A stretch of 64,000 nt of DNA from Escherichia coli (GTDB lineage Bacteria > Pseudomonadota > Gammaproteobacteria > Enterobacterales > Enterobacteriaceae), in assembly GCF_030013205.1 (NCBI RefSeq), contig NZ_CP122649.1. One strand, written 5' to 3'. Of the stretch, positions 62,609-64,000 are shown piece after piece. Position 1 is the first letter of the stretch; every line of letters starts with the position of its first letter. The translations under genes were made by a program, and so were the position numbers. The notes below the pieces were generated by a model. The model did no database searches and had not been told where the DNA came from. It saw only the letters and a program-made list of their open reading frames with translations.

Positions 62609-62745
62609 CCCAGTGATATCGGGCCTCTCAGCGGATCAGCATCCACTGTACAGGGGGAGAAATACACTATGTCGGGTAATCCATCCACTGTACCGGGCGC
62701 ATAATCCACTATACCGGGTAGATTCGATACACTATAGCGGGTAGG
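62609..62745. repeat. iterons upstream of repA
   Basis: Five to six repeats of about 17-19 bp (ATCCACTGTACCGGG, ATACACTATAGCGGG). Confidence 0.8.
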
Positions 62746-62779
62746 ATGTAGATCTTATGCACAAAACGGATCTCCCAAT

Positions 62780-63661
62780 ATGTCAAGTAATAACAACAAG
62801 TTATCTCTCGTCATTGAAGAGTCCCTAAAAGATTCAGGGGAAGTTATACAACTCTTTCCCACATTAAAACAGACCATTCAACCGAAAGTTTTACTCCGCC
62901 TAGGTGTGTTTGTGCCGACTTTGAAATCTACGGACAAGGGGGGGAGGAAGAGCCATCATATCGATGCCACTGAGCCGCTATCAAGGTTATCTATTGTAGA
63001 GGGTGAAGGTTACAGCCAGATCCAAATCTACGGGCCGCGTCTCGATATGGATACCGATTTCAAATCATGGTGTGGGATCGTTTATGCGTTGTCTAACCGG
63101 CCGCTTGATTCAGAAGGTCAGCTGGAGCTGAATTTTCCGGAGTTTGCAAAATTTTGTGGGTTTGATACCAAGCGCATTGATAAACAACTGAAAGAGCGCT
63201 TTGATGCTTCGCTGACGCGTATAGCCCGGACCAACATTTCATTTATTAAGAAAATACCCGGTACAGATGATCAGATAACGATAAACATGCACCTGGTGGA
63301 ATCGACGTATTACGACAGTTCCACGGGAAAAATCATCATCAAGCCAAATTCGAAGCTCAATACGCTGTATCGCGTCGACGGTAAAACCCGACTCTACCTG
63401 AAGACATTGCAAAAACTGGCCCGTAAGGAGTCCGCACAGGCCCTGTACCTGTATCTGGCTGAGCTGCCGAGCACCTTTTACCGCATCGGATTCGATCGGC
63501 TTCGTGGACGACTCCAACTGTCATCACACCTCGGTAACCAGAATGCCACGGTTAAAAAGGCGCTGGGCCAGCTTAAAGAGATCGGTTTTCTGGAATACTC
63601 CATAGACAAAGAAAACGGCGATTACGTACTGAATATTCTAAAGAGAAACATGAAGCCATGA
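62780..63661 (+). CDS. repA: iteron-type replication initiator RepA (P1/RepFIB-like)
   Basis: 293 aa; RLGVFVP, IDAT, GPRLDMDTDFKSWCGIVYA, FAKFCGF match P1 RepA as recalled. Confidence 0.88.
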   Translation: MSSNNNKLSLVIEESLKDSGEVIQLFPTLKQTIQPKVLLRLGVFVPTLKSTDKGGRKSHHIDATEPLSRLSIVEGEGYSQIQIYGPRLDMDTDFKSWCGIVYALSNRPLDSEGQLELNFPEFAKFCGFDTKRIDKQLKERFDASLTRIARTNISFIKKIPGTDDQITINMHLVESTYYDSSTGKIIIKPNSKLNTLYRVDGKTRLYLKTLQKLARKESAQALYLYLAELPSTFYRIGFDRLRGRLQLSSHLGNQNATVKKALGQLKEIGFLEYSIDKENGDYVLNILKRNMKP

Positions 63662-63697
63662 CCGATGCCGGATAATGCACCTGCCTGCCGCGTGGGT

Positions 63698-64000
63698 GGC
63701 TGCGTTACCCGGTATAGTGGACATTCTTCTCCTTTCCACTCTGCTTTACCCGGTACAATGGATCTCCACTACACCGGGTAGTGTCAGGCCTAAAATTACG
63801 ATGCAGCCCCTCCTCTTCAGCCTTACACTGAATATTTAGTGTGTTTTTTCACCAAAAATGTGATCTATACCCGGTACAGTGGAGTCACAGAAATGTGATC
63901 CGTACCCGGTATAGTGGATGAGAACTACTGCTAATCGGTTACCGGGAATGTGGTGGTACTGGGTGGAAAGGTTTACCCGGTATAGTGGATCGTGGCAGTG
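63698..64000. repeat. iterons downstream of repA
   Basis: At least five copies of CCCGGTATAGTGGA (inverse orientation), continuing to window edge. Confidence 0.8.

What the first reader, a model, noticed from the sequence alone, without database searches (positions are those of the whole stretch)
62609..64000. P1/RepFIB-like iteron replicon at the window edge
repA is flanked by upstream and downstream iteron sets in opposite orientation, the classic incC/incA arrangement. The downstream set continues to the window end, so its full extent is unknown. A palindrome site (62425) lies upstream.
Basis: partly seen in the sequence, partly recalled or inferred. Interest (0 to 1): 0.3.

Follow-up and report, generated by a model that had tools for sequence, protein, structure and literature searches.

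The report
RepHI1B iteron replicon of IncHI1 plasmid

Summary
A 293-aa initiator gene (62780-63661, +) has five 16-bp iterons (TCCACTATACCGGGTA) just upstream, spaced 21/21/21/23 bp. Six more lie downstream inside the window, five of them inverted. The motif gives 12 matches in the window against 0.35 expected, and 11 of them lie here.

The DNA is 100% identical to R27 and pHCM1, and the whole window is collinear with pHCM1. Those records show the downstream set ends 178 bp past the window edge, with three more inverted iterons (nine in all, as in P1/P7 incA).

The protein is 42% identical over nearly its full length to P1/P7 RepA. It passes Pfam Rep3_N, and its model matches RctB and RepE initiator folds.

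The origin side carries two DnaA-box-like sites flanking the iterons and the densest GATC cluster in the window.

R27 has two such Rep genes. This one is RepHI1B: its relatives are typed IncHI1B, while the other gene groups with IncHI2A. It belongs to the P1/RepFIB family but not to the IncFIB or IncY incompatibility type.

The "palindrome" at 62425 has 5-bp arms, which is chance level. Already known; low interest.

The parts
62425..62640 (.). Left (origin-opening) part of the replicon: a non-coding block conserved with pNDM-CIT, moderately A+T-rich, holding DnaA-box-like sites and the GATC cluster
   Evidence: Similarity to pNDM-CIT starts abruptly at about 62425 and is near-perfect from 62470 to 62640. 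There are 9 GATC in 62425-62790, the highest density in the window (mean 1.18 per 366 bp; next best 6).
62486..62494 (+). Weak DnaA-box-like site TTACTCACA (1 mismatch to TTWTNCACA)
   Evidence: Read from the sequence; conserved in pNDM-CIT. Weak candidate only.
62532..62540 (+). DnaA-box-like site TTATCAACA (8/9 to TTATCCACA), left of the iterons
   Evidence: invariant in pNDM-CIT. Background is 24 such sites in 128 kb of both strands, or 0.14 per 366 bp.
62541..62601 (.). A+T-rich stretch (AATAATAATAAA) followed by three GATCAA(T/A)A repeats 11 bp apart and a fourth GATC: presumed Dam-methylated opening region
   Evidence: GATC at 62559, 62570, 62581 and 62598; 80% A+T at 62540-62559; identical in pNDM-CIT apart from one base.
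62642..62657 (+). Origin iteron 1 (TCCACTGTACAGGGGG, 4 mismatches)
62663..62678 (+). Origin iteron 2 (TACACTATGTCGGGTA)
62684..62699 (+). Origin iteron 3 (TCCACTGTACCGGGCG)
62705..62720 (+). Origin iteron 4 (TCCACTATACCGGGTA, consensus)
62728..62743 (+). Origin iteron 5 (TACACTATAGCGGGTA)
62755..62763 (+). DnaA box TTATGCACA (exact match to TTWTNCACA) between the last iteron and the repA start
   Evidence: conserved in pNDM-CIT
62780..63661 (+). repA (RepHI1B initiator), 293 aa, two winged-helix domains
   Evidence: ORF. Pfam Rep3_N 37.9 bits against a cutoff of 22.4. 42% identical to P7 RepA. Model pLDDT 71.9; Foldseek hits RctB domains 2-3 (E 2.8e-8) and RepE (E 1.4e-5). RefSeq WP_000097746.1, RepB family plasmid replication initiator.
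63255..63270 (-). Iteron-like site inside repA (3 mismatches); function uncertain
   Evidence: Kept in pNDM-CIT but absent from two other relatives.
63706..63721 (-). Downstream (control) iteron 1, perfect
63747..63762 (-). Downstream iteron 2; left arm of the head-to-head pair
   Evidence: (I23)
63765..63780 (+). Downstream iteron 3, the only one in the upstream orientation; right arm of the head-to-head pair
63868..63883 (-). Downstream iteron 4
63903..63918 (-). Downstream iteron 5, perfect
63974..63989 (-). Downstream iteron 6, perfect; the last one inside the window. Three more follow in pHCM1/R27 at virtual positions 64041, 64108 and 64163.

Best explanation
This is the RepHI1B basic replicon of an IncHI1 plasmid; the window is a pHCM1-like plasmid. 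It is an iteron-controlled theta replicon organised like the P1/P7 plasmid replicon.

Inferred mechanism, by homology with P1, P7 and F. RepA monomers bind the five helically phased iterons at 62642-62743. Host DnaA is expected to bind the boxes on either side (62532 and 62755). Together they would open the adjacent A+T-rich, GATC-dense stretch (62541-62601) so that the host helicase can load. The GATC cluster would tie initiation to Dam methylation state. The nine RepA sites downstream of repA (63706 to virtual 64178, mostly inverted) would act as the copy-number and incompatibility locus, equivalent to P1 incA. They would do this by titrating RepA and pairing with origin iterons (handcuffing).

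Shown here: sequence identity to R27 and pHCM1, family membership of RepA, its fold class, the number, phasing, orientation and non-random clustering of iterons, and the DnaA-box and GATC content.

Inferred only: RepA-iteron binding, autoregulation, handcuffing and Dam dependence.
For: - Identity: 100% over 1601 bp to R27 (54017-55617) and pHCM1 (28088-29688), and to about 218 IncHI1-type plasmids. The window is collinear with pHCM1 at 99.90-99.98%.
- Iterons: 12 matches against 0.35 expected, 11 of them in this locus. Five upstream at 21/21/21/23 bp and nine downstream, eight inverted.
- RepA: Pfam Rep3_N above threshold. 42% identical to P7 RepA and 41.8% to P1-type phage RepA. Fold matches RctB domains 2-3 and RepE.
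- Same layout in the annotated P7 record: DnaA box, five incC iterons at 21/21/21/22 bp, repA, and nine incA iterons (3 direct, 6 inverted).
- The layout is conserved while iteron sequence changes in relatives: pNDM-CIT, a K. pneumoniae IncHI1B-typed plasmid, a P1-like phage and RepHI1A.
- Origin features: two DnaA-box-like sites against 0.14 expected, and 9 GATC in 366 bp, the window maximum. All are conserved in pNDM-CIT.
- Name: R27 has two such Rep genes. The one at 39.5-40.4 kb is 86% identical to the Rep at position 1 of an IncHI2A-typed plasmid. Ours is 60.6% identical to the Rep of a K. pneumoniae plasmid typed IncHI1B, against 34% for the other gene. Ours is also 88% identical in DNA to the rep of an E. 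coli plasmid typed IncHI1B.
- The RepFIA-like replicon of R27 lies elsewhere, at about 156.6 kb (PMC4853401). That paper also states that either RepHI1 replicon can take over replication of R27, citing Gabant 1993.
- PMC5390554 describes an inversion covering 'repHI1B and Tra1'. This fits the window, where this rep follows Tra1.
Against: - No sigma-70 promoter-like site was found on the + strand in or near the iterons. The best hand-picked candidate (TAGATT, 17 bp, TAGGAT, 62719-62747) scores only 7/12, so autoregulation by promoter occlusion is not supported by sequence alone.
- No clear Shine-Dalgarno sequence lies ahead of the ATG at 62780.
- The left DnaA box is 8/9, not perfect.
- The papers that define RepHI1B (Gabant 1994; Ouazzani Chahdi 1997) and the R27 genome paper could not be read. 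The 1B versus 1A label therefore rests on typing of relatives and map position, not on the original sequence.
- MOB-suite types R27 itself only as IncFIA, and pNDM-CIT as IncHI1A plus an unnamed cluster.
Confidence: 0.93

Rival explanations
1. It is the other IncHI1-specific replicon, RepHI1A, not RepHI1B. The mechanism is the same and only the name differs.
For: Both R27 Rep proteins are RepB/Rep3-family, about 291-293 aa and 35% identical to each other. The defining papers could not be read. pNDM-CIT, which carries an 89% identical copy of this rep, is typed 'IncHI1A, rep_cluster_1254' without saying which gene earns which label.
Against: The other R27 Rep (39480-40355, next to Tra2) is the one with 86% identical homologues in 1115 records, including position 1 of IncHI2A-typed pT5282-mphA. 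Ours is closest to Reps of plasmids typed IncHI1B. The pAKU_1 inversion 'repHI1B and Tra1' (PMC5390554) fits a gene order of Tra2, the 40-kb rep, the 55-kb rep, Tn10, Tra1 only if the 55-kb gene is repHI1B.
Confidence: 0.05
2. It is a decayed or silent replicon remnant carried passively, with RepHI1A or RepFIA doing the replication work.
For: IncHI1 plasmids carry three replicons. Deleting the incC repeats of RepFIA destabilises R27 (PMC4853401), so not all replicons are equivalent. No convincing promoter or Shine-Dalgarno sequence was found here.
Against: The ORF is intact and 100% conserved in more than 200 plasmids from several genera. Iterons, DnaA boxes and GATC sites are conserved at 89% overall divergence in pNDM-CIT. 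Related E. coli plasmids start their records at this rep and are typed only IncHI1B. PMC4853401 reports that either RepHI1 replicon can sustain R27. PMC5390554 reports that repHI1B is expressed as protein.
Confidence: 0.02
3. The downstream repeats are a partition (centromere-like) site rather than a copy-control locus.
For: Irregularly spaced repeats next to a replicon can be centromeres. In P1, parA lies just beyond incA.
Against: The downstream repeats have the same 16-bp sequence as the origin iterons, up to 16/16, so they are sites for the same protein. No ParA or ParB gene adjoins them; the next gene is a 171-aa hypothetical on the other strand. The IncHI1 partition modules sit in Tra2. 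PMC8115583, citing Gabant 1994, states that repHI1B lacks a partition system.
Confidence: 0.02

Closest known systems
RepHI1B replicon of IncHI1 plasmids R27 (NC_002305, 54.0-55.6 kb) and pHCM1 (NC_003384, 28.1-29.9 kb)
   Same: Identical DNA over the whole finding and identical sequence beyond the window edge. The protein is WP_000097746.1.
   Different: Nothing; this is the same element. Only the 1B versus 1A label is inferred rather than read from the original description.
P1/P7 plasmid prophage replicon (oriR/incC - repA - incA; IncY)
   Same: RepA is 42% identical. Both have five origin iterons at about 21-bp phasing directly upstream of repA, nine downstream iterons that are mostly inverted, DnaA boxes at the origin, and a GATC-rich origin.
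   Different: The iteron sequence is unrelated (TCCACTATACCGGGTA against GATGTGTGCTGGAGGG), so no cross-incompatibility is expected. Downstream orientation is 1 direct and 8 inverted, against 3 and 6. Downstream spacing is wider and irregular (35-121 bp against about 31 bp). P7 has a tandem perfect DnaA box at the left end, whereas here single sites flank the iterons. No par operon follows.
RepFIB replicons (IncFIB, e.g. IncFIB(K) of Klebsiella plasmids)
   Same: Same RepA family, about 43% identical over the full length, with the same flanking-iteron design.
   Different: Far below replicon-typing identity. Megablast finds only IncHI1-type and IncHI1B-typed relatives at 80% or more.
RepHI1A of R27 and RepHI2A of IncHI2 plasmids
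   Same: Sister RepB-family initiator on the same plasmid (35% identity), also flanked by iterons on both sides.
   Different: Different iteron (TATTCGTGCAAATGCTTTTC) carried in 43-44-bp units, and located next to Tra2.
IncHI1B(pNDM-MAR)-type replicon of large Klebsiella plasmids (repHI3B/repHI5B group)
   Same: Closest distinct Rep (60.6% identity). The iteron is related (TCAACGCTGGCGGGTA), with upstream copies direct and downstream copies inverted.
   Different: The downstream array is expanded to at least 26 tandem 42-bp units.
RepE of F (RepFIA), and RctB domains 2-3
   Same: Tandem winged-helix initiator fold (Foldseek E 1.4e-5 and 2.8e-8).
   Different: No detectable sequence similarity, even with a six-sequence profile.

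Membership tests
P1/P7-RepFIB-type iteron replicons | Initiator homologous over its full length to P1/P7 RepA | tested here: met
   42% identity, E 1e-64 to P7 RepA; 41.8% over 96% of length to RepA of P1-type phages.
P1/P7-RepFIB-type iteron replicons | About five helically phased iterons immediately upstream of repA (incC/origin) | tested here: met
   Five copies at 21/21/21/23 bp, against 21/21/21/22 bp in P7.
P1/P7-RepFIB-type iteron replicons | A second iteron cluster downstream of repA (incA), mostly in inverted orientation | tested here: met
   Nine copies, eight inverted. Six are in the window and three just beyond it in identical pHCM1/R27 DNA.
P1/P7-RepFIB-type iteron replicons | DnaA boxes and a Dam (GATC) cluster in the origin | tested here: met
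   TTATCAACA at 62532 and TTATGCACA at 62755 (0.14 expected). 9 GATC in 366 bp, the window maximum. The left box is imperfect.
P1/P7-RepFIB-type iteron replicons | Autonomous replication; downstream iterons exert copy control and incompatibility; repA autorepression | not testable with these tools
   Needs mini-replicon, copy-number and incompatibility assays. No promoter was predicted in the iterons.
Rep_3 / RepE-pi-type winged-helix initiators | Pfam PF01051 (Rep3_N, WH1) above the gathering score | tested here: met
   37.9 bits against a cutoff of 22.4, E 2.9e-9.
Rep_3 / RepE-pi-type winged-helix initiators | WH1-WH2 tandem winged-helix fold | tested here: met
   AlphaFold model pLDDT 71.9, pTM 0.66. 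Foldseek hits: RctB domains 2-3 E 2.8e-8, RepE E 1.4e-5, MSBI1.176 WH1 E 2e-3. The model is of moderate quality and TM scores are 0.3-0.54.
RepHI1B (IncHI1B(R27) replicon type) | Near-identity to the R27 reference replicon | tested here: met
   100% over 1601 bp to R27.
RepHI1B (IncHI1B(R27) replicon type) | This R27 rep gene, not the 40-kb one, is the gene called RepHI1B | tested here: met
   Indirect. Relatives of this gene are typed IncHI1B and relatives of the other gene are typed IncHI2A. Map order fits PMC5390554. The original papers and PlasmidFinder were not available.
IncFIB (RepFIB in the strict sense) | Typing-level nucleotide identity to an IncFIB reference | tested here: not met
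   Only about 43% protein identity to RepFIB-annotated genes. No IncFIB plasmid appears among the megablast hits.
IncY (P1/P7) | Shared iteron sequence, and hence shared incompatibility | tested here: not met
   TCCACTATACCGGGTA against GATGTGTGCTGGAGGG.

The most novel reading that the evidence does not exclude
The head-to-head iteron pair downstream of repA (63747-63780, two full iterons 2 bp apart) may be more than one more titration site. It could be a dedicated binding site for RepA dimers, like the inverted-repeat operators of F RepE or pPS10 RepA, but placed in the control locus. It may also be the unit that evolves by tandem amplification to reset copy number. The same pair is repeated about six times (period 108-121 bp) downstream of the 88% identical rep of E. 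coli plasmid NZ_AP025221. I could not check whether the RepHI1B papers already describe this.
Probability: 0.1. Interest if true: 0.25.

Novelty: already known. Interest (0 to 1): 0.07.

Why it matters
It matters only for annotation. The finding fixes the window as an IncHI1 (pHCM1-like) multidrug-resistance plasmid of the kind carried by Salmonella Typhi. It also marks one of that plasmid's three replicons, the target of IncHI1B(R27) replicon typing. RefSeq labels the gene only as 'RepB family' and does not annotate the iterons, DnaA boxes or origin, so the coordinates given here add a little. There is no new biology.

Tried and rejected
- NCBIfam gave no hit for RepA.
- phmmer and a six-sequence profile against PDB sequences found no initiator. 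Only the fold search linked the protein to RepE and RctB.
- The exact-sequence cluster look-up returned only generic names ('RepB family'), not RepHI1A or RepHI1B.
- The R27 genome paper and Gabant 1993 are not held. Papers that mention RepHI1A/B give no coordinates.
- The promoter and terminator scan found no + strand promoter at the iterons and no terminator.
- Rfam found nothing credible; the best hit was E 0.48, so there is no sign of antisense-RNA control.
- The palindrome at 62425 was rejected as chance.
- The 54-aa ORF at 63675-63839 overlaps the downstream iterons and is unannotated in RefSeq, so I treated it as spurious.
- The degenerate iteron-like stretch at 63940-63956 (TACCGGGAATGTGGTGG) needs an indel to align and was not counted.

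Full report
**1. What is in the sequence**

An ORF of 293 aa runs from 62780 to 63661 on the + strand. A 16-bp motif, consensus TCCACTATACCGGGTA, is concentrated around it. With up to 3 mismatches it occurs 12 times in the 64-kb window against 0.35 +/- 0.59 expected from dinucleotide-preserving shuffles. Eleven of the twelve lie between 62663 and 63989.

- Upstream: five copies in the orientation of the gene, at 62642 (4 mismatches), 62663, 62684, 62705 and 62728. The spacing is 21, 21, 21 and 23 bp, or two helical turns.
- Downstream, inverted: five copies at 63706, 63747, 63868, 63903 and 63974.
- Downstream, upstream orientation: one copy at 63765. It sits 2 bp from the copy at 63747 and forms a head-to-head pair.
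- Inside repA: a 3-mismatch copy at 63255-63270 on the - strand.

The 'palindrome' at 62425 is AAAGT-A-ACTTT, with 5-bp arms. Palindromes of that size occur 1.2 times per 100 bp in this window, and the repeat finder reports none there. It is not a feature.

**2. Where the window comes from, and the missing end**

The region 62400-64000 is 100% identical to R27 (NC_002305, 54017-55617, reverse strand) and to pHCM1 of S. Typhi CT18 (NC_003384, 28088-29688). It is at least 99% identical to 218 plasmids of Salmonella, E. coli, Citrobacter and other genera.

The whole window is collinear with pHCM1 at 99.90-99.98%. It runs from the Tra1 transfer region (trhH, mobI, MobH relaxase, traD) through backbone genes to this rep gene.

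pHCM1 and R27 are identical to each other and to the window here, so they supply the missing end. Three more inverted iterons follow at virtual window positions 64041, 64108 and 64163. The array then stops, about 70 bp before the next gene, a 171-aa hypothetical on the - strand.

The downstream set therefore has nine copies, eight of them inverted. Six are inside the window.

**3. The protein**

- Pfam places residues 109-226 in Rep3_N, the WH1 domain of iteron initiators: 37.9 bits against a gathering score of 22.4.
- RefSeq calls the protein a RepB family plasmid replication initiator.
- It is 42% identical to P7 RepA (E 1e-64).
- It is 41.8% identical over 96% of its length to RepA of P1-type phages, and 43.7% identical to SSU5 RepA.
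- It is about 43% identical to genes annotated 'RepFIB replication protein A' and to Yersinia pestis plasmid RepA.
- Sequence searches of the PDB found no initiator, even with a six-member profile.
- An AlphaFold model (pLDDT 71.9, pTM 0.66; the N-terminal 33 residues are disordered) matches RctB domains 2-3 (E 2.8e-8), the RepE dimer on operator DNA (E 1.4e-5) and a WH1 domain. That is the tandem winged-helix initiator fold.

**4. Origin features to the left of the finding's start**

An alignment with pNDM-CIT, whose rep is 89% identical, shows that similarity begins abruptly at about 62425 and is almost perfect from about 62470 to the repA start. The block contains:

- TTATCAACA at 62532 (8/9 to the DnaA box);
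- an 80% A+T stretch;
- three GATCAA(T/A)A repeats 11 bp apart (62559, 62570, 62581) and further GATCs;
- the five iterons;
- TTATGCACA at 62755, an exact match to TTWTNCACA, between the last iteron and the ATG.

Sites within one mismatch of the DnaA box are expected at 0.14 per 366 bp, and two are seen. GATC occurs 9 times in 366 bp. This is the highest density anywhere in the window, where the mean is 1.18 and the next best is 6.

The replicon's left edge is therefore near 62425, not 62609. The downstream alignment shows that the iterons are better conserved than their spacers.

**5. Comparison with the reference architecture**

The GenBank record of the P7 replicon annotates a DnaA box, incC, repA and incA. 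Repeat analysis of that record gives five incC iterons at 21/21/21/22 bp and nine incA iterons, three direct and six inverted. The window locus has the same design with an unrelated iteron sequence.

The design recurs, each time with its own iteron:

- in a P1-like phage (TTGACTATACGCGA);
- in the K. pneumoniae relative (TCAACGCTGGCGGGTA, downstream array expanded to at least 26 units of 42 bp);
- in pNDM-CIT;
- in R27's other HI1 replicon (TATTCGTGCAAATGCTTTTC).

**6. Which IncHI1 replicon**

IncHI1 plasmids carry RepHI1A, RepHI1B and a RepFIA-like replicon (PMC4853401, PMC6339943). The RepFIA-like incC repeats are at R27 156,644-156,878 (PMC4853401), far from here.

R27 has two RepB-family genes. 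One is at 39480-40355, next to the trh genes of Tra2. The other, at 54356-55237, is ours. They are 35% identical.

- The 40-kb protein has 1115 plasmid records with 80-90% identical homologues, including position 1 of pT5282-mphA, which is typed IncHI2A.
- Our protein is 60.6% identical to the Rep of a K. pneumoniae plasmid typed IncFIB/IncHI1B/IncP. The 40-kb protein is only 34% identical to it.
- Our gene is 88% identical in DNA to the rep at position 1 of an E. coli plasmid typed only IncHI1B.
- PMC5390554 describes an inversion in pAKU_1 that 'included repHI1B and Tra1'. That fits the gene order seen here.

I conclude that this is RepHI1B, with about 0.9 confidence in the name. My recollection of the R27 map agrees, but that is memory and not a test. 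I could not read the defining papers.

**7. Mechanism**

Shown: everything in sections 1-6.

Inferred from the established behaviour of P1, F and other iteron plasmids (general knowledge of iteron-plasmid control):

- RepA monomers occupy the five phased iterons.
- DnaA at the flanking boxes and the methylated GATC/A+T stretch support opening and helicase loading.
- The nine downstream sites lower copy number by titrating RepA and handcuffing origins, and they express incompatibility.

PMC4853401, citing Gabant 1993, states that either RepHI1 replicon can take over R27 replication. PMC8115583, citing Gabant 1994, states that repHI1B lacks its own partition system.

Weak points: no promoter-like site is predicted in the iterons. 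The best manual candidate (62719-62747) is 7/12. No Shine-Dalgarno sequence is evident. No RNA family is detected, which is consistent with control by iterons rather than by antisense RNA.

**8. Verdict**

The element is the already described RepHI1B replicon: a member of the P1/RepFIB-type family of iteron replicons, but not of the IncFIB or IncY incompatibility types. Novelty is nil and interest is low.

The only mildly open points are the head-to-head iteron pair, which is amplified in a related E. coli plasmid, and the iteron-like site inside repA, which is not conserved beyond pNDM-CIT.

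Noticed in passing
window 17219-17257: A perfect inverted repeat with 16-bp arms (AAAAGTGACCCTATGT, 7 nt, ACATAGGGTCACTTTT), the longest perfect palindrome in the window. 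It lies in the gap upstream of mobI and the MobH relaxase genes of Tra1, so it is a candidate oriT element.
   Followed up: no
window 60787-62388: A chain of short + strand ORFs (200, 83, 98, 137 and 46 aa) that look like a frameshifted Ig-like-domain protein gene. It is paralogous to the intact 794-aa gene on the - strand at 58152-60536. RefSeq annotates only fragments, and these differ between R27 and pHCM1.
   Followed up: partly
window 63747-63780; L010 912-1524: The head-to-head iteron pair with a 2-bp gap downstream of repA is repeated about six times (period 108-121 bp) in E. coli plasmid NZ_AP025221. That plasmid's rep is 88% identical and it is typed only IncHI1B.
   Followed up: partly
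window 63255-63270 (- strand, inside repA): An iteron-like site with 3 mismatches inside the coding sequence; about 0.007 expected by chance in the gene. It is kept in pNDM-CIT but absent from the E. coli and K. pneumoniae relatives. A P1-like phage has its own in-gene copy at a different position and orientation.
   Followed up: partly
L006 3431-4600 (K. pneumoniae NZ_CP147600): Downstream of the 60%-identical Rep lie at least 26 tandem 42-bp repeats, each carrying the inverted iteron. RefSeq annotates 'hypothetical protein' CDSs across this array, which are probably spurious.
   Followed up: no
L004 44007-44831 (R27, outside the window): R27 encodes its own Dam-family adenine methyltransferase between the RepHI1A and RepHI1B replicons. 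This is notable given the very GATC-dense RepHI1B origin.
   Followed up: no
L004 38700-40500 (R27 RepHI1A, outside the window): The sister replicon RepHI1A uses an unrelated iteron (TATTCGTGCAAATGCTTTTC) in 43-44-bp units on both sides of its rep gene. Cross-talk between the two HI1 replicons through iterons is therefore not expected.
   Followed up: partly
window 1-690: The first ~690 bases of the window did not align with the pHCM1 segment fetched (L011), although the rest is 99.9% identical. pHCM1 has an ISVsa5 transposase gene ending in this stretch, so an IS junction may be the cause.
   Followed up: no
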